64,000 bases of DNA from Candidatus Woesearchaeota archaeon CG_4_10_14_0_2_um_filter_33_13 (GCA_002792115.1 PFNQ01000013.1:7236-71235); one strand, 5' to 3'. Shown: positions 9,198-64,000, numbered from the stretch's first letter. Numbers and translations: made by a program. Notes: generated from the sequence alone by a model not told the origin.

Positions 9198-10358
9198 ATG
9201 ATTAGCATAGCTAAATATTTATCCGGGAAAGGTATAGACGTATCTAAGAAAAGCAGTCTTTCGGATGTTAAACATGTTTTCATCGTTCCCGATAATACCT
9301 ACAGAATAGTTGAAACAGAGTTAGATTTCATTTATAATGATGGTGTGATCAACCTTACTAAGTATTATCGCATATTATTAAAAGAATGGTTTTATGCGCT
9401 TAAAAAGGATGGAAAAATAATAATCAAGTTCATTGAATCAGATTGGTTTTCATCTGATTTTCTCAAAGAAGAAGTAGAACTCTTGTTTGGCGATAGCGTA
9501 TCGGTTATTTTTGAGAGAAAAGAGAATAAGAAAGATGGCGGGAGTTGTTTTTTGGTTCTTAATAAAAATATCTCTGGGCCGTATTATCCAGAAGGAATAA
9601 ATAATTGGTCTTTTGGAATAATTACCAATGGAAAGAAAATGGATGCCTTAGCTAAGATAATTGCATCTATTAGACACCAGAATATTCCTAATTATGAGAT
9701 TATTATTTGTGGAACTTATGGTGGTTTAATAGAAGAAGACACGAAATACATTCACTTTACAGAAAATGACCATCGGGGATGGATAACTAAAAAAAAAAAT
9801 TTGATTTGTGATAAAGCCAAATTTGAAAATTTGTTTGTTCTGCACGATAGGATTGTTCTTAATCCGGGATGGTTTGCAGGAATGAAAAAATACGGAAATA
9901 ACTTTGAAGTACTCTCTTGCAAAATAGATCATAAAACAATTAGGACTTATGATTGGATTACTTCTCGATACCCTTATAAAGATCCAAGAAGCCGACAATA
10001 TTTTGGTGGTTATTTAGAATATTCCGATTGGGACCAGTGGATTTACATTGATGGTGGGGCGATTATCCTAAAAAAAATAGTCTGGGAAAAAGTTAAATGG
10101 GATGAAAACCTATTTTGGAATGAAGCAGAAGATCTTAAGCTTAGTCATGATCAAACAGAGCACGGAATTTTAATTAGGTTCAATCCTTATTCAACGTGTG
10201 AATCATTAACCTGGAGACATCCATCAAGTAAACTTATTTTTAAAAAGAACAAAAAGAAACTTGGAAAACTAAGTGGTCCTTTTCATTATTTAATTGGAAA
10301 AAAGCTGCTTAATTATTCTGTCCTCGTGAAAAACAAGTTTAAAAATGAAAAATTATAA
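9198..10358 (+). CDS. Hypothetical two-domain protein (methyltransferase-like N-term, GT-A-like C-term?)
   Basis: ORF with weak similarity patterns only; embedded in glycosylation island. Confidence 0.3.
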   Translation: MISIAKYLSGKGIDVSKKSSLSDVKHVFIVPDNTYRIVETELDFIYNDGVINLTKYYRILLKEWFYALKKDGKIIIKFIESDWFSSDFLKEEVELLFGDSVSVIFERKENKKDGGSCFLVLNKNISGPYYPEGINNWSFGIITNGKKMDALAKIIASIRHQNIPNYEIIICGTYGGLIEEDTKYIHFTENDHRGWITKKKNLICDKAKFENLFVLHDRIVLNPGWFAGMKKYGNNFEVLSCKIDHKTIRTYDWITSRYPYKDPRSRQYFGGYLEYSDWDQWIYIDGGAIILKKIVWEKVKWDENLFWNEAEDLKLSHDQTEHGILIRFNPYSTCESLTWRHPSSKLIFKKNKKKLGKLSGPFHYLIGKKLLNYSVLVKNKFKNEKL

Positions 10359-11856
10359 TACTGATGTGGTGTTAATTAACCTCAATGGACCATTACATAT
10401 GACTTCTAATTATTTGCATGCTCTATTGAAACGTGAGGGAATTTTAGTTAAAACTATTCACTTTAGAGAATATGAGCCTCGGAGCGAACCTCCTACAAAT
10501 AATGAATTAGAAATACTCTCAAATTTGATTAAAGAGATTAATCCTAAAATAATTAACATTTCTGTAAATTCAATGAATTACTTTGATGCTAAGGATATTA
10601 CTGAAAAAATAAGAGGGGAACTTGGCATCCCTTTTATTTGGGGGGGCCCCCATACCCTTGTAATGCCTGAAGAAAGTATTAAAATCGCAGATTTCATTTG
10701 TCGTGGTGAGGGCGATGTTTATTTCCCAGAACTAATTAAGAAATTTATTGCAGGTGAGGATTGCAGTAAAGTTCCGAACATTTGGATTAAGAGGGGCCTA
10801 GAAGTAATAAAAAACGAATTTGGGCCTCTAGTTAAAGATTTGGACATGCTTCCATTTCCGGATTACTCTGATGTGGATAAATATTATCTGATTGATTCTC
10901 GGATAAGCACAAAGTATGAAATTCCTTCTAGAAAGTATGTTTATCAACTAATGACTTCTCGAGGGTGTCCTTTCAGGTGTAGTTATTGTATGAATTCTCT
11001 TATATTTAACTTATTCCATAACAAATTTCTTCGTAAACGGGGAGTTAATTCAGTAATAGAAGAGTTAGTCCAAGTAAAAAAGATGCATCCAAAATTAAAA
11101 ACAATTTATTTTTGGGATGACGTGTTTGTAATGGATCTTCCTTGGTTAAAAGAATTTGCCAAAGTATATAAAGAAAAGATTAATATCCCATTTTTTTGCT
11201 ATTGCCACCCAATGTTTGTAAAAGATGAAACAATTAAAATTCTTAAATGGATGGGTGTTAAGATGATCTTTATTGGGATTGAGAGTGGTTCTCCGCGGGT
11301 TAGAAGAGAAATTTACGATCGTCACGAAACTAACGACAAAATAATTGAAGCAGCAACAATTATTAACAAACATAAAATTAAGGTTCATTATGACATCATC
11401 ACTTCAAAATTTGACACTCTAAAGGACTTTGACGTTGCATTACATCTGTTACTAAACTTGCCTAAACCGTTTCATATAAATCATAATAATTTGGCATATT
11501 ATCCGGGATTTAAAATTACGAATTTGGCCCTCCAAGAAAAAATAATATCAAAGCAGGAAGTTGCGGGGTATTCAAGAAAGATTAGAACACAATATGCAAC
11601 AAAAAATGAATTTGAGAATAATCCTGAATTGGCATATTATTACCTCATTGGGAGAAAATTCATCCCCAACCAGTTTATTTTTTGGTTGTACTCACATGAA
11701 TCTCATCTCAAACATAAGAGTTTATTTGGCCATATCCCTTCTTTGTTTGAAAGCTTTGATAATAATTTACATGCTCTAAATTTGATGTTTAAGCTGTTGT
11801 CATATGGGGAATTTAAATTTGTATTTTTTGAACTTAAGAAACGATTCTTTAAGTGA
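10345..11856 (+). CDS. B12-binding-domain radical SAM protein (class B rSAM)
   Basis: CPFRCSYCMNS CxxxCxxC cluster after N-terminal B12-binding-like domain. Confidence 0.7.
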   Translation: MKNYNTDVVLINLNGPLHMTSNYLHALLKREGILVKTIHFREYEPRSEPPTNNELEILSNLIKEINPKIINISVNSMNYFDAKDITEKIRGELGIPFIWGGPHTLVMPEESIKIADFICRGEGDVYFPELIKKFIAGEDCSKVPNIWIKRGLEVIKNEFGPLVKDLDMLPFPDYSDVDKYYLIDSRISTKYEIPSRKYVYQLMTSRGCPFRCSYCMNSLIFNLFHNKFLRKRGVNSVIEELVQVKKMHPKLKTIYFWDDVFVMDLPWLKEFAKVYKEKINIPFFCYCHPMFVKDETIKILKWMGVKMIFIGIESGSPRVRREIYDRHETNDKIIEAATIINKHKIKVHYDIITSKFDTLKDFDVALHLLLNLPKPFHINHNNLAYYPGFKITNLALQEKIISKQEVAGYSRKIRTQYATKNEFENNPELAYYYLIGRKFIPNQFIFWLYSHESHLKHKSLFGHIPSLFESFDNNLHALNLMFKLLSYGEFKFVFFELKKRFFK

Positions 11857-11877: not shown

Positions 11878-13500
11878 TTGTCAGAGATTCACAAACTTTA
11901 TATAAGCCCAGTTACACAGAATTTGTGGTGTACCCAAGTGATTCCTGATAACAAATATGTATTAGTTTTAAATTTAGGATTGAGGAGTATTAGAGCAATT
12001 GTTTTTGATCATACTGGTAAAAAGTTAACACATAGCTGGCTACCAGTAAGAACTTTTATTAAGGATGAGATGGTTGAACAAGATCCAAATGAGTGGTGGT
12101 CACTTGCCTTACGTGTAATTGACGAAGCTACTACTAGCCAAGAAATAAAAGATAATTTGGAATATATTACTGTTACAAGTTCATCTTGTAATCTGGTTCT
12201 TGTTGATGAAGATAAAAACTCGTTGGGTAATTCTTTAATGGTTTCTGACAAAAGGTCTTTAATACAGGCACAACAACTTTTTGAACATGAACCAATAAAA
12301 TATTTGTTTGATACACATAATATTCTTCCAGTTTCAAGTTTCTTAGCTCCAAAAATTCTTTGGATAAAAGATAAAGATCCAAATCGATTTTATCATACAA
12401 AACATTTTATTAGCTCTGATTCTTACCTTTTGATGAAACTAACTAATGGGATTATTGTTTCTGACCCTCTTAATGCTGAAAAAGCATTTTATTACATGCC
12501 TGAGAATAAATACCCTGCTCCATTATTAGAATATTTAGGTCTAACTGAAAAAAACTTTCCTCAAGTTAAGAATGTTGGAACAATTATTGGTAAAATTTCT
12601 CCTGAACTAAAAACTTTGTTTGCTTTTAACCAAAACGTTAGTGTGGTTCTTACAACTTATGATGCATTAGCTTCATTCTGGGGTTCGGGAGCACTAGAAG
12701 AAGGAGAAGCATGCATTGTTTGTGGAACGTGTTCTTCCATTAGAGTTTACTCTAAAGAAGGGCTAAAACAAAAAACTGCTGGATTATTATCTCAATATTT
12801 TGAAAATAAAAATGCTCATGTTGTTGGTGGATCAAATAATCTTGCAGGCGGTCTTTTAGAATGGGCTAAGGACGCATTTTATCAGGATGTTTATTCAGAT
12901 AATAATGACTATATCTTTGGTTTGATGGAGCAAGAAGCTAACACTAGTACTCTTGGAGCAAAAGGATTAATCTTTCTGCCATATCTTATTGGAGAAAGAA
13001 CCCCCTTCTTTGATTCTGAGGTTAGAGGTATGTTCTTTGGATTAGAAAGATCCCATAATAGAAAAGATATTATCAGATCAATCTACGAAGCCATTGGGTT
13101 TTTATCTTGGGATATTATCACATCTATGGAAAGAGGTGGGGTGTTAGTCAGAAATCTTCGCCTTTCTGGCGGCTTAGGAAAAAATGAGTTAATTTGTCAG
13201 ATTAAGGCTGATATTACTGGGAAAGAAGTTCATCTTTTGGATGAGGTTGAAACAACTGCTCTCGGATGTTTTATGCTTATTGCTTCTGCTTTAGGGGGTA
13301 ATGAAACACAGAAAGTTTTTCCCACAAATCTCTCTATCAGTAAAAGGTTCATTCCTAATTTAGATAACCATATCAAATATCAACAACTCTATCACCTTTT
13401 CAAAAAATTATACAAAGACAATAAAGAAAATTTTAAGTACAGAAATGAATTACTCAAAACAATTAATGAAAAGAGGAAATACGAAGTAAAAAACTTATAG
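11878..13500 (+). CDS. FGGY-family carbohydrate (pentulose/polyol) kinase
   Basis: FGGY N-terminal LVLNLGLRSIRAIVFD and C-terminal GGLGKNELICQIKADITG motifs. Confidence 0.6.
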   Translation: MSEIHKLYISPVTQNLWCTQVIPDNKYVLVLNLGLRSIRAIVFDHTGKKLTHSWLPVRTFIKDEMVEQDPNEWWSLALRVIDEATTSQEIKDNLEYITVTSSSCNLVLVDEDKNSLGNSLMVSDKRSLIQAQQLFEHEPIKYLFDTHNILPVSSFLAPKILWIKDKDPNRFYHTKHFISSDSYLLMKLTNGIIVSDPLNAEKAFYYMPENKYPAPLLEYLGLTEKNFPQVKNVGTIIGKISPELKTLFAFNQNVSVVLTTYDALASFWGSGALEEGEACIVCGTCSSIRVYSKEGLKQKTAGLLSQYFENKNAHVVGGSNNLAGGLLEWAKDAFYQDVYSDNNDYIFGLMEQEANTSTLGAKGLIFLPYLIGERTPFFDSEVRGMFFGLERSHNRKDIIRSIYEAIGFLSWDIITSMERGGVLVRNLRLSGGLGKNELICQIKADITGKEVHLLDEVETTALGCFMLIASALGGNETQKVFPTNLSISKRFIPNLDNHIKYQQLYHLFKKLYKDNKENFKYRNELLKTINEKRKYEVKNL

Positions 13501-56008: not shown

Positions 56009-56815
56009 ATGGAATCCACTTGGCAAATAACTCAAGAAACAAAAGTTTTACCGAAATTAAACAAACCCATTTTTATTGAAGGTTTACCTGGAATTGGAAA
56101 TGTTGGTAAGATTGCAGTTGATTATCTTGTTGAAGGGTTAAAAGCAAAGAGAATATATTCTTTTTTTTCTTACAAATTTCCCCATTCTGTTTTTGTTTCA
56201 GAAAAAAATTTAATAGAAATGCCCCGGATTGAAATTTTTTACAAAAAATCTACCGGCAAGGGAAGAGACTTTTTATTTTTAGTCGGGGACATTCAACCAA
56301 TTGATGAAGACAGTTGTTACTCTTTTTGTAATGAAATTTTAACTATCATAAAACAGTACAATTGTTCGGAGGTAATAACTACCGGCGGGATTGGTTTACA
56401 AACTATTCCAGATACCCCCAAAATATATTGTACTAGTAACGATGCTGAACTCTTAAAACAATATCACCAAAAAAGCAAGATTCTAGAAAAAGAAATATTT
56501 GGTGTAGTTGGTCCAATTGTTGGTGTTTCCGGAGTATTGTTGGGATTTGGTCAAAGGCAAGGAGTTAAAGGTGTTGCTTTACTAGCAGAGACTTATGGTC
56601 ATCCATTATATTTGGGAATAAAAGGGGCTAAAGAAATATTAAAAATCATTGATAAAAGATTTTCTTTAAAGATTAATCTGCAAAAAGTTGATAAAGATAT
56701 TCTTAGTTTGGAAAAAGAATTGTTAAAGAAGACTGCTGAGCTTTCCTCTGAGATATTGCATTCAACATCAGCTGGTGCAAAAGCAAGAGATAAAGATGTT
56801 AATTATATTGGTTAA
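56009..56815 (+). CDS. PAC2-family proteasome assembly chaperone homologue (PbaA/PbaB-like)
   Basis: IFIEGLPGIGNVGKIAVDYL N-terminal signature of archaeal PAC2 proteins. Confidence 0.7.
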   Translation: MESTWQITQETKVLPKLNKPIFIEGLPGIGNVGKIAVDYLVEGLKAKRIYSFFSYKFPHSVFVSEKNLIEMPRIEIFYKKSTGKGRDFLFLVGDIQPIDEDSCYSFCNEILTIIKQYNCSEVITTGGIGLQTIPDTPKIYCTSNDAELLKQYHQKSKILEKEIFGVVGPIVGVSGVLLGFGQRQGVKGVALLAETYGHPLYLGIKGAKEILKIIDKRFSLKINLQKVDKDILSLEKELLKKTAELSSEILHSTSAGAKARDKDVNYIG

Positions 56816-56954: not shown

Positions 56955-58955
56955 ATGCCAAAAAAGAGGTTGGGATGTGGTTTATTTAGTTTTCTTCCTA
57001 TTAGCTCAGGCTCTGGGCGAAGCTCTAAAAGAGGGCAAATCACTGTTTTTATTATTCTGGGCATTTTAATGTTGTTGGCATTGGTTTTAGTTATCGCTTT
57101 AAAATCAGAAATTTTTGCTTTTAAAACGGATGAAATCGCTCCTACAGAAAAAGGCAAAGTTGAAAATTATATTGTTGCGTGTATGGATAGACTTGGAGAA
57201 GAAGCTTTATTTAAAATTGGTCTTCAAAGCGGATACATTGAAGTACCTACCCAAATTGCTAAAGATAATCAACAAAGTTTGAGACTTTCTCCTATGAATG
57301 TAGTTCCCTATTGGGCGGTTGGGCCAAATATCTTTGTTCCCTCATTACAAGAGATAAAAGAACGGATTGATCTTTACATGGAAGAAAATATGCGCGATTG
57401 TCTTTTCTCTACTCAAGCTTTTACAGAACAATACGACCTAATCGAGAAAAGTGAAATTACTGCAGATACAAATATTGCTGAGAATCAAGTTATCTTTAAT
57501 ATTCATTGGGACATTGAAGTTAATAATAAAGCAGGAGAAGTTGTTAGTGAAGTTATCAACCATATTACTGAGTCTCCTGTGAAATTAAAGAAAGTTTATA
57601 CTATGGCAGTAAAGATTCTTGAGAATGAGATGCAATCATTAAAGGTGGAAGATATTACTCAAGACCTTATTGCTTTAGAACATCCTAAAGTGCCGGTAGC
57701 TGGAATTGAATTAAGATGTAGTAAAAAAACATGGGATGTTAAAGAAGCGGAGAGTACTTTGCTAAAGATGTTACGTATCAACATCCGAGAATTAAAAATT
57801 AAAGGGACCGATTTTTTAGAGTTTCCTGAAGAATTACCTTACTATGATAATCATTATGTTTGGGACATTGGAGAAGATATTTCTGAAAGAAAAGTTAGTG
57901 TAATGTTTAACTTTGATGAGACTTATCCACATGTTTTTGCAGTTACTCCTTTATCCGGCACAAAAATGGCTAGTTCTCAATTAGGTGGTACTGATCAAAT
58001 TTCTTTCTTATGTATTCAAACGTGGAAATTTACTTACGATTTGGTTTACCCGGTACTGGTAAGAGTGAGGGATGAAACAACCAATTATGAATTTAATATG
58101 GCCTTTACAGTTCATTTAATTCAGAACACTCCTAACAAAGGCGATCCTGTCGCTAGAGCTTCGTTGCAATTTCCTACAATAAATGCTGATGGGTATTGTA
58201 CTTCTGCTAATGTTCCAATGAGTATAAAAACTTATGAACTAGTAGAAAATGGTGAGGGAGTAAGTTATAACGAAGATTTGGGAGATGTTAACCTCAGCTT
58301 TACTTGTTTAAGATACAAATGTGACTTGGGCCAAAGTAAATACGACTACGCAGGTTTGGGTTTCTCTGGAATAAGTTTGAATGTGCCGTATTGTGTTGGA
58401 GGAATTTTAAGGGGAACTAAACCAGGATATAAAGAATCTTGGCAGAGAGTAGTTACAACGGCCGGCAAGGAAGCCGAGTTAAGCTTGACTCCAGTTATTA
58501 ATATTCCTCTCAATAAAATTAAGGTGGTTAAACATGATTTTACTGAAGTTAATGGAGTTAAAAATATTGGTCCTGCTCAAGAAGGTGCAGTTGAGGAGAC
58601 TACATTAATCAAACTTAAGTTTATTAAATCAAATCTTACCGAAACAAATTTAGAACATGAGGCTACTGTTGCAGTATCAAAACAGATGGACAAAAAAATA
58701 TTTGAAGAAGAGAAATTAGAATTGTTGGCTAAAGCCGATTTTACCTATTATTTGGAAGTGATGGTTTTCAGAGAAGAAGAGTTTATTGGAGGATATAAAG
58801 GTGAAGTAACCTTACCTTGGAGCCAATTAAAAGATGCTAGTCAATTAATCTTCCACATTTTATCCAGTAAAACAACTAATGAGGAAGAAATGTTTGCATT
58901 TATGACAAACATTGAAGAGCTGAGCAAAGAAATACCTGCTTTAGAAATAAAATAA
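56955..58955 (+). CDS. Membrane-anchored (signal-anchor) 666-aa protein of unknown function
   Basis: Basic N-term then TM (ITVFIILGILMLLALVLVIAL), large extracytoplasmic domain; TATA-like 25 nt upstream; 31 bp before giant ORF. Confidence 0.5.
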   Translation: MPKKRLGCGLFSFLPISSGSGRSSKRGQITVFIILGILMLLALVLVIALKSEIFAFKTDEIAPTEKGKVENYIVACMDRLGEEALFKIGLQSGYIEVPTQIAKDNQQSLRLSPMNVVPYWAVGPNIFVPSLQEIKERIDLYMEENMRDCLFSTQAFTEQYDLIEKSEITADTNIAENQVIFNIHWDIEVNNKAGEVVSEVINHITESPVKLKKVYTMAVKILENEMQSLKVEDITQDLIALEHPKVPVAGIELRCSKKTWDVKEAESTLLKMLRINIRELKIKGTDFLEFPEELPYYDNHYVWDIGEDISERKVSVMFNFDETYPHVFAVTPLSGTKMASSQLGGTDQISFLCIQTWKFTYDLVYPVLVRVRDETTNYEFNMAFTVHLIQNTPNKGDPVARASLQFPTINADGYCTSANVPMSIKTYELVENGEGVSYNEDLGDVNLSFTCLRYKCDLGQSKYDYAGLGFSGISLNVPYCVGGILRGTKPGYKESWQRVVTTAGKEAELSLTPVINIPLNKIKVVKHDFTEVNGVKNIGPAQEGAVEETTLIKLKFIKSNLTETNLEHEATVAVSKQMDKKIFEEEKLELLAKADFTYYLEVMVFREEEFIGGYKGEVTLPWSQLKDASQLIFHILSSKTTNEEEMFAFMTNIEELSKEIPALEIK

Positions 58956-58986
58956 TTTCAGTTTAAGAAATGATGTATCATTAAAC

Positions 58987-64000: not shown

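What the first reader, a model, noticed from the sequence alone, without database searches (positions are those of the whole stretch)
56955..64000. Two-gene module: signal-anchored 666-aa protein plus giant Cys-rich membrane/surface protein missing from the ORF track
A continuous frame-1 ORF runs from 58987 to the window end (>1,670 aa). It begins only 31 bp after a 666-aa TM-anchored protein with no recognisable domain, so the two are probably co-transcribed.

Features seen directly in the translation:
- An N-terminal FN3-like domain.
- Internal hydrophobic helices.
- A Cys-rich region (CSGTPDCVSGNSGQCINNKC, GCDCIH, a GGGGG run).

In a small-genome, probably host-associated archaeon, such giant surface proteins are prime candidates for host attachment or a fusogen/adhesin role. 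This is the most likely undescribed system in the window.
Basis: seen in the sequence. Interest (0 to 1): 0.8.

Follow-up and report, generated by a model that had tools for sequence, protein, structure and literature searches.

The report
Conserved pilin-anchored giant surface protein module
Two genes found side by side in many genomes of small symbiotic archaea (the DPANN group) make an outer-surface module: a membrane protein that begins like a pilus subunit and a 2,118-amino-acid secreted protein held together by many disulfide bonds (cross-links between cysteines). It is a strong candidate for the machinery these archaea use to grip their hosts, but that role has not been shown.

Summary
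The ORF that starts at 58987 does not stop at the window edge. It is a complete 2,118-aa gene (P2) ending at window-equivalent 65343 on the same contig. It begins 31 bp after a 666-aa protein (P1). Immediately after P2 comes a ~200-aa type IV pilin-like gene (P3). The genome is a DPANN archaeon (archaeal 16S rRNA; 1.33 Mb; 33% GC). Its close relatives are Woesearchaeota/Nanoarchaeota proteins. The P1–P2 pair keeps its order in nearly every relative: P1 occurs in 362 of 401 genomes of the phylum, P2 in 249, and P1 sits directly upstream of P2 wherever both are listed. P1 has no Pfam family. It carries a class III (prepilin-peptidase-type) signal peptide, with the cleavage junction (K/R)(K/R)(G/A)|QxT(I/V)F strictly conserved. 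P1's extracellular part holds 8 invariant cysteines. P2 is a Sec-secreted protein with N-terminal Ig/FN3-like domains and a conserved disulfide-rich core (33 cysteines ≥90% conserved). It ends in a conserved 'CPGxxLCCPP' motif and, in this strain, a variable SH3b tail. P3 has a textbook G|xxxxE class III leader. Structure searches show only generic β-sandwich folds; the fusexin/HAP2 idea is not supported. Best reading: a pilin-anchored giant surface adhesin module, probably used for host contact. Function not shown.

The parts
56955..58955 (+). P1: 666-aa class-III-leader surface protein (no Pfam family), first gene of the module
   Evidence: ORF; homologues in Woesearchaeota/Nanoarchaeota; in 362/401 phylum genomes; no Pfam hit even as a 61-member profile
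56955..57035 (+). P1 class III (prepilin-peptidase-type) leader, residues 1-27; predicted cleavage after G27 (G/A in all 60 homologues) before invariant Q28
   Evidence: column counts; same junction in distant families; prepilin peptidase PibD-like gene present in genome
57036..57131 (+). P1 hydrophobic N-terminal helix (res 28-59), pilin alpha1-like, start of the mature protein
   Evidence: hydropathy; AlphaFold helix 26-59
58956..58986 (+). 31-bp P1-P2 spacer (tight spacing conserved in relatives)
58987..64000 (+). P2 giant secreted protein (2,118 aa). The gene runs past the window end to a TAA at window-equivalent 65341-65343 (L001:4223-10579). Beyond the window it carries the conserved C-terminal GCPGxxLCCPP motif (res ~2002-2012), an S/T linker and a variable SH3b domain (res 2060-2107). 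P3, the pilin-like third gene (201 aa, leader KKKG|AIAIE), follows at window-equivalent 65345-65950 (L001:10581-11186).
   Evidence: homologues 1,400-2,400 aa; in 249/401 phylum genomes, adjacent to P1; P3 in 35/36 same-family genomes
58987..59094 (+). P2 Sec-type signal peptide (res 1-36), conserved 'LP(I/L)(V/S)(S/F)A|L' site
   Evidence: hydropathy; comparison across loci
59086..59334 (+). P2 N-terminal FN3/Ig-like domain (res 34-116; Pur_ac_phosph_N/fn3)
   Evidence: Pfam (1.8e-5 / 0.022, sub-threshold); Big_6/Big_13/Glucodextran_B in homologues
61087..61275 (+).
   Evidence: AlphaFold model of res 650-1849; hydropathy
60934..64000 (+). P2 conserved disulfide-rich core (res 650 onward; 33 Cys >=90% conserved), continuing past the window
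   Evidence: alignment A1; Cys conservation; C-terminal motif
62188..62247 (+).
   Evidence: Cys conservation 14-18%

Best explanation
P1, P2 and P3 form a cell-surface attachment module of these DPANN archaea. P1's class III leader is cut after G27 by the prepilin-type peptidase (PibD). The pilin-like hydrophobic N-terminal helix that remains anchors P1 in the membrane, or puts it into a type-IV-pilus-like filament. P1's disulfide-bonded extracellular domain then sits outside the cell. P2 is exported by Sec, its signal peptide is cut, and it stays at the surface by binding P1 and/or the small pilin P3. That would make it a giant, stiff, disulfide-bonded adhesin. Its conserved core would be the scaffold, and its variable C-terminal tail (SH3b here, something else in other strains) would be the part that binds a partner, most likely the host cell surface. 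This would be a functional analogue of bacterial minor-pilin + PilY1 tip-adhesin modules. Shown: the genes, their leaders, their extracellular disulfide-rich nature, and their conserved linkage. Inferred: processing by PibD, the complex, and the adhesion role.
For: Gene order is conserved across the phylum: P1 is directly upstream of P2 on the same strand in dozens of genomes from different families, with 31-bp spacing here. Locus tags in NCBI records are consecutive, e.g. Q8R47_01395/01400 and GOV03_05165/05160. P1's junction (K/R)(K/R)(G/A)|Q-V-T-(I/V)-F-I-I-(L/I)-G is invariant while the n-region varies from 4 to ~40 aa, the signature of a cleaved class III leader rather than a signal anchor. 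P3 has a G|xxxxE leader; only 2 of 1,319 ORFs in the genome have such a leader. The genome encodes a PibD-like prepilin peptidase and a PilB/PilC-like assembly pair. P1 carries 8 invariant Cys and P2 33 conserved Cys, which points to extracellular, disulfide-bonded domains. P2 has bacterial Ig/FN3-type domains typical of adhesins. Models: P1 pLDDT 82.6 with the N-terminal helix starting at the cleavage site; P2 is built from β-sandwich domains. P2's C-terminal tail differs between strains of one species past a fixed CCPPP boundary and varies across the family, as expected for a binding module under diversifying selection.
Against: No direct evidence of surface location, processing, complex formation or adhesion. 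The Pfam class III models do not detect P1 or P3: Class_IIIsignal PF04021 and N_methyl PF07963 find nothing, so the leader call rests on motif reasoning. No PilB/PilC/PilT genes lie in the module; the assembly machinery is elsewhere (C20). P3 is family-specific, so most P1-P2 loci lack it. Whether P2 is retained at all is unknown: it has no C-terminal anchor and could be released. Structure matches are generic.
Confidence: 0.45

Rival explanations
1. P1 + P2 form a two-component S-layer-like envelope: P2 is the main canopy protein (like Sulfolobus SlaA) and P1 is its membrane anchor (like SlaB), anchored by the processed class III helix instead of a C-terminal TM. The role is structural, not adhesive.
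For: Both are large, β-sandwich-rich, disulfide-bonded extracellular proteins. P1's β-sandwich domain matched Sulfolobus S-layer SlaB (8qox_B) among top VIA hits (Z 9.0; Foldseek rank 14). The pair is near-universal in the order, as an S-layer would be. P2 is single-copy per genome.
Against: P1 has paralogues and occurs without P2 in some lineages (vs 65), which is unusual for a single S-layer system. The family-specific pilin P3 points to a pilus link. No sequence relationship to known S-layer families.
Confidence: 0.25
2. P1 is a class-III-leader substrate-binding or receptor protein, like the Sulfolobus bindosome sugar-binding proteins. It is anchored via its pilin-like helix and works in uptake or sensing; P2 is a secreted partner that binds a substrate.
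For: Class III leaders with membrane-retained helices are used by archaeal substrate-binding proteins (established knowledge of the Sulfolobus bindosome, also mentioned in PMC13705601). The enzymes encoded next to the module are secreted hydrolases that vary between loci.
Against: No transporter genes in the module. No binding-protein fold signal in fold searches. P2's size and Cys content fit an adhesin or structure better.
Confidence: 0.12
3. The module mainly delivers or organises secreted hydrolytic enzymes that break down the host envelope (P2 as a scaffold for the downstream enzymes).
For: The gene right after P3 is always a secreted enzyme: a metallophosphoesterase here; in other loci PDA+3D+metallophosphoesterase, an FGE-sulfatase or a GDSL esterase. 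Some P2 homologues carry a transglutaminase-like domain with putative catalytic Cys/His.
Against: The enzyme type varies, while P1/P2 are constant. Our P2 lacks the transglutaminase domain.
Confidence: 0.1
4. P2 is a fusexin-like fusogen or cell-cell fusion protein.
For: One P2 β-sandwich domain (model res 889-1147) has HAP2 domain III (5ow3_C, Z 9.1) as its top VIA match, and archaeal Fsx1 appears at Z 7.5.
Against: Those Z-scores are tied with many glycosidase and dextranase Ig-like domains (Z 8.6-9.0). No domain II fusion-loop architecture was found. P2 has no C-terminal TM, and P1's TM is N-terminal, the opposite topology to fusexins.
Confidence: 0.03

Closest known systems
Bacterial type IV pilus minor pilins + PilY1 tip adhesin (e.g. 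Pseudomonas aeruginosa fimU-pilV-pilW-pilX-pilY1-pilE cluster)
   Same: A large Sec-secreted adhesin encoded next to small proteins with class III (prepilin-type) leaders. In bacteria these sit at the pilus tip and are assembled using the main pilus machinery encoded elsewhere (established knowledge).
   Different: P2 has no PilY1 C-terminal β-propeller (PF05567 not found; no PilY1 in fold searches) and is far larger and Cys-rich. P1 is a ~640-aa class III protein, much larger than bacterial minor pilins. This is archaeal, and P3 lacks the N_methyl model hit.
Archaeal T4F-associated adhesin-like proteins (e.g. subsystem 4A/B PilY-like adhesin arCOG03511; Ig-fold adhesins in system 2/4 loci; PMC13705601)
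   Same: Large Ig-fold extracellular proteins linked to archaeal class III signal peptide systems, proposed to act in adhesion.
   Different: That paper reports DPANN (Nanobdellati) as mostly lacking classic T4F loci. This module has no ATPase or platform gene in the locus, and no arCOG link was tested here.
Sulfolobus S-layer SlaA/SlaB
   Same: A two-protein archaeal surface system: a large secreted β-sandwich canopy protein plus a membrane-anchored β-sandwich partner. P1's domain matched SlaB among top structural hits.
   Different: SlaB is anchored by a C-terminal TM, P1 by an N-terminal class-III-processed helix. No sequence homology. P2 carries Cys-rich and Ig/FN3 domains not typical of SlaA.
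Sulfolobus bindosome (class III signal peptide sugar-binding proteins)
   Same: Large extracellular archaeal proteins with class III leaders, anchored by the retained N-terminal helix after PibD processing (established knowledge).
   Different: No substrate-binding-protein fold detected, no transporter genes, and a giant partner protein is present.
HAP2/fusexin (incl. archaeal Fsx1)
   Same: One P2 Ig-like domain resembles HAP2 domain III.
   Different: Only at generic β-sandwich level (tied Z-scores). No fusion-loop domain II, no C-terminal TM.
Nanohaloarchaeal T4P loci with coiled-coil 'CCP' proteins (PMC11291902)
   Same: Proposed DPANN host-interaction module with surface proteins.
   Different: Those loci contain CpaF/TadC assembly genes and coiled-coil sigma-1-like proteins; this module does not.

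Membership tests
Class III signal peptide (prepilin-peptidase substrate) proteins | Positively charged short leader ending in G (or A) at -1, followed immediately by a ~20-residue hydrophobic stretch retained in the mature protein | tested here: met
   P1: (K/R)(K/R)(G/A)|Q-x-T-hydrophobic in all 61 homologues, leader length variable. P3: KKKG|AIAIE..., in 28/34 homologues G, others A/S.
Class III signal peptide (prepilin-peptidase substrate) proteins | Detection by curated HMMs (Pfam Class_IIIsignal PF04021, N_methyl PF07963) | tested here: not met
   Neither model detects P1 or P3 in the genome. These short models are lineage-biased, so this lowers but does not remove the assignment.
Class III signal peptide (prepilin-peptidase substrate) proteins | In vivo cleavage by PibD/prepilin peptidase | not testable with these tools
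   A PibD-like gene is present; cleavage not testable here.
Type IV pilin / minor pilin | E at +5 of the mature protein plus N-terminal alpha1 helix followed by a C-terminal globular domain | tested here: met
   P3: E+5, hydrophobic alpha1 then ~170-aa soluble domain. P1: alpha1-like helix from the cleavage site but no E+5.
PilY1 family tip adhesin | C-terminal PilY1/Neisseria_PilC β-propeller domain (PF05567) | tested here: not met
   Pfam scans of P2 and homologues show no PF05567.
PilY1 family tip adhesin | Sec-secreted large protein encoded in a minor-pilin cluster | tested here: met
   P2 Sec signal peptide and adjacency to class-III-leader genes P1/P3.
Fusexin / HAP2 (class II fusion proteins) | Three-domain ectodomain with fusion loop(s) in domain II, then a C-terminal TM anchor | tested here: not met
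   No C-terminal TM in P2; only an Ig-like domain-III-like match, tied with unrelated Ig domains.
S-layer SlaA/SlaB type | Sequence homology to known S-layer families or a C-terminal membrane anchor on the anchoring subunit | tested here: not met
   No Pfam/NCBIfam S-layer hits; P1 anchor is N-terminal.
S-layer SlaA/SlaB type | Formation of a regular 2D lattice covering the cell | not testable with these tools
   Would need cryo-ET or proteomic abundance.
Archaeal T4F locus (system 1-4) | Assembly ATPase and platform protein encoded in the same locus as the pilins | tested here: not met
   No ATPase or platform in the P1-P2-P3 locus; PilB/PilC-like genes lie on contig C20.

The most novel reading that the evidence does not exclude
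P1-P2 is the general host-attachment organelle of Woesearchaeota/Nanoarchaeota-type DPANN episymbionts, and is near-universal across this phylum. P1 is a giant pilin-like anchor, processed by the class III peptidase and probably put onto a type-IV-like filament. P2 is a disulfide-stiffened adhesin whose swappable C-terminal tail (SH3b or other) sets which host it binds.
Probability: 0.3. Interest if true: 0.75.

Novelty: new variant of a known kind. Interest (0 to 1): 0.55.

Why it matters
How DPANN archaea recognise and hold on to their host cells is a major open question: nearly all are uncultured and their attachment proteins are unknown. This module is a strong, concrete candidate. It is conserved across most of the phylum, extracellular, and linked to the class III leader system used by pili. 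It has a variable C-terminal tail that could set host range. It can be tested by proteomics, N-terminal sequencing of P1, localisation in cultured DPANN–host co-cultures, and binding assays. P1 has no Pfam family at all, so the module also names an uncharacterised protein family for annotation.

Tried and rejected
Fusexin/HAP2: the top VIA match of one P2 Ig-like domain was HAP2 DIII (Z 9.1), but it was tied with glycosidase Ig domains. There is no C-terminal TM and no DII-like fusion-loop domain was seen. Rejected as membership; 'works like' kept at low probability. Teneurin: P1's Foldseek hits to teneurin and SdrD are generic β-sandwich matches with TMq 0.10-0.13. Internal TM helices in P2: none reach TM hydropathy. 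Sequence-level matches to solved structures: none for the P1 profile, P3, or the P2 core profile, except a meaningless intersectin hit at E 0.69. ESM Atlas feature search of the P2 core: no usable hit. P1 search only found its own DPANN clusters. Atlas structure searches: P1 matched only DPANN clusters (TM 0.48-0.50); P2 had no informative match. PHROGs: no hits for P1, P2 or P3, so no phage origin signal. NCBIfam: no family for P1, P2 or P3. Pfam Class_IIIsignal and N_methyl HMMs: do not detect P1/P3; reported as a failed defining-feature test. Sigma-70 promoter/terminator scan: no excess over shuffles; not informative for an archaeon. Composition: module GC (34-37%) matches the genome, so no sign of recent transfer. 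Complex prediction (P1 with P3 or P2) was considered but not run. Pilin α1 packing would tend to pass from resemblance to solved structures, and a negative result would not count against binding.

Full report
Origin and coordinates. The window is contig C19:7236-71235 (+) of a 1.33-Mb, 57-contig, 33%-GC genome. It is an archaeon: archaeal SSU rRNA scores 1399 bits against 1050 for the bacterial model. Homologues of the genes studied here are labelled Woesearchaeota/Nanoarchaeota (DPANN) in NCBI. Genome sizes of relatives are 0.5-1.9 Mb.

Checking the observation. The + strand ORF at 58987 is open to the window end. In the genome it continues to a TAA at window-equivalent 65341-65343, encoding a 2,118-aa protein, P2 (L001:4223-10579). 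It starts 31 bp after the 666-aa ORF P1 (56955-58955). P1 has one N-terminal hydrophobic segment, residues 25-58, flanked by basic residues. P2 has only its N-terminal signal peptide (9-36). The 'internal hydrophobic helices' are amphipathic (best 19-residue KD 1.45); one forms a 63-residue helix in the model (res 701-763). Pfam gives P2 a weak N-terminal Pur_ac_phosph_N/fn3 Ig-like domain, a weak Glucodextran_B Ig domain at 351-385, and a C-terminal bacterial SH3 (SH3_3, 3e-6, res 2060-2107). P1 has no Pfam or NCBIfam family, even when all 61 homologues are scanned. The Cys-rich region is real: 56 Cys in the last 1,600 aa. Across 57 homologues 33 Cys are ≥90% conserved.

A conserved three-gene module. 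Close homologues of both proteins are numerous in Woesearchaeota/Nanoarchaeota metagenome bins. NCBI locus tags are consecutive (Q8R47_01395/01400; GOV03_05165/05160). In genome searches across the phylum P1 is found in 362/401 genomes and P2 in 249/401. In essentially every genome listed with both, P1 lies immediately upstream of P2 on the same strand, including families with only 28-37% identity. Directly after P2 (1 nt gap here) is P3, a ~200-aa protein (L001:10581-11186, window-equivalent 65345-65950). P3 is present in 35/36 genomes of the same family, always downstream of P2, but hardly outside that family. In this family the locus continues with a tightly packed secreted enzyme, whose type varies: a metallophosphoesterase here; a polysaccharide deacetylase + 3D + metallophosphoesterase, or an FGE-sulfatase, in other loci; a GDSL esterase in others. 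The conserved upstream neighbour is the PAC2 proteasome-assembly chaperone.

Signal peptides. P1's N-terminus is the key new finding. Across 61 homologues the junction reads (K/R)(K/R)(G/A)|Q-(V/I)-T-(I/V)-F-I-I-(L/I)-G. G or A is at -1 in all, Q+1, T+3, F+5 and G+9 are invariant, and the n-region varies from ~4 to ~40 aa. Distant homologues start simply MKKG|QIT.... This pattern is the signature of a class III (prepilin-peptidase-type) signal peptide, not an uncleaved signal anchor. In the AlphaFold model (pLDDT 82.6) the hydrophobic helix begins exactly at the predicted cleavage site, as the pilin α1 helix does. P3 carries the canonical pilin leader KKKG|AIAIE with E+5, conserved across its family. 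Only 2 of 1,319 ORFs ≥100 aa in the genome have such a leader. The genome encodes a prepilin peptidase (PF01478) and PilB/PilC-like assembly genes with small pilins on contig C20. The short Pfam class III HMMs do not detect P1 or P3, so the assignment rests on the motif and its conservation. P2 has a conserved Sec-type signal peptide ending 'LP(I/L)(V/S)(S/F)A|L'. It has no C-terminal anchor. Most homologues end just after a conserved 'GCPGxxLCCPP' Cys motif. Ours adds an S/T linker and an SH3b domain. A same-species variant (P0001, 99.75% identical over residues 1-2011) has a different tail beginning precisely after CCPPP, which points to a swappable C-terminal module. Some homologues carry an inserted transglutaminase-like domain with a putative Cys/His catalytic site.

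Structure. The P1 model shows an N-terminal helix, an α/β region, then several β-sandwich domains. Foldseek and VIA give only generic β-sandwich matches: SdrD, SpaA pilins, teneurin, S-layer SlaB, transthyretin-like and CnaB (Z ≤10.1). The model of P2 residues 650-1849 (pLDDT 76.5) contains a long helix, a helical domain and β-sandwich domains. Its best PDB matches are MSCRAMM, integrin, arrestin and Ig-like domains with TMq ≤0.08, and the atlas gives nothing informative. In VIA the top match was HAP2 domain III (Z 9.1), tied with glycoside-hydrolase Ig domains. No solved structure shares sequence similarity with P1, P2 or P3.

Interpretation. The simplest reading is a DPANN surface module. 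P1 is a large class-III-leader (pilin-like) protein anchored by its processed N-terminal helix, with a disulfide-bonded extracellular domain. P2 is a giant Sec-secreted, disulfide-stiffened Ig/FN3 protein, with a variable C-terminal tail that may bind a partner. In this family P3, a small pilin, joins them. By analogy with bacterial minor-pilin + PilY1 tip complexes and archaeal T4F-associated Ig-fold adhesins (PMC13705601), the likely role is cell-surface attachment, plausibly to the host archaeon these episymbionts depend on. The literature searched does not describe this family; related DPANN attachment loci in Nanohaloarchaea are different CpaF/TadC/coiled-coil systems (PMC11291902). A structural S-layer-like role (P2 canopy + P1 anchor) is the main rival. 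Fusexin-type fusion is not supported. Shown here: the genes, their completeness, leader motifs, extracellular Cys conservation, and conserved linkage across the phylum. Inferred: PibD processing, complex formation, surface retention of P2, and adhesion.

Noticed in passing
window 56009-56815 (+): PAC2-family proteasome assembly chaperone gene (Pfam PAC2 1.4e-38) is a conserved upstream neighbour of P1 here and in relative L004.
   Followed up: partly
L001:11188-13827 (+) (beyond window): A secreted 879-aa metallophosphoesterase follows P3 with 1-nt spacing. The equivalent gene varies between loci (PDA+3D+metallophosphoesterase, FGE-sulfatase, GDSL esterase), so these are possibly host-envelope-modifying enzymes co-transcribed with the adhesin module.
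   Followed up: partly
L001:13820-14443 (+); contig C19:76053-76073: A 207-aa protein with N-terminal signal and C-terminal TM, conserved downstream in L004. Its reading frame contains a 21-base run of N (withheld or unresolved bases) in the assembly.
   Followed up: no
P2 homologues P0006, P0013, P0018 (res ~215-330): An inserted transglutaminase-like core domain (PF01841, up to 1.6e-10) with an apparent Cys/His catalytic motif, absent from our P2 (which has an acidic/S-T linker there).
   Followed up: partly
P2 C-terminus, beyond window (L001 ~10270-10579): The P2 C-terminal tail after the conserved CCPPP motif differs between two near-identical strains (SH3b here vs another Cys-containing tail in P0001). 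This suggests a recombining, swappable binding module.
   Followed up: partly
genome contig C15 (L016 1471-3795): A 775-aa paralogue of P1 with the same 'SKKG|QVTVFII' class III junction, not followed by a P2 homologue.
   Followed up: partly
window 59319-59813 (-): 164-aa antisense ORF inside P2; no support, likely spurious.
   Followed up: no
genome contig C20 (L007) and C28 (L006): PilB-like ATPase + PilC-like platform with small class-III pilins on C20, and a PibD-like prepilin peptidase with a class III leader protein on C28. This is the likely processing/assembly machinery for P1/P3.
   Followed up: partly
genome contig C22, ORF starting at 12986 (+): The only other ORF in the genome with a pilin-type G|xxxxE leader (133 aa).
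   Followed up: no
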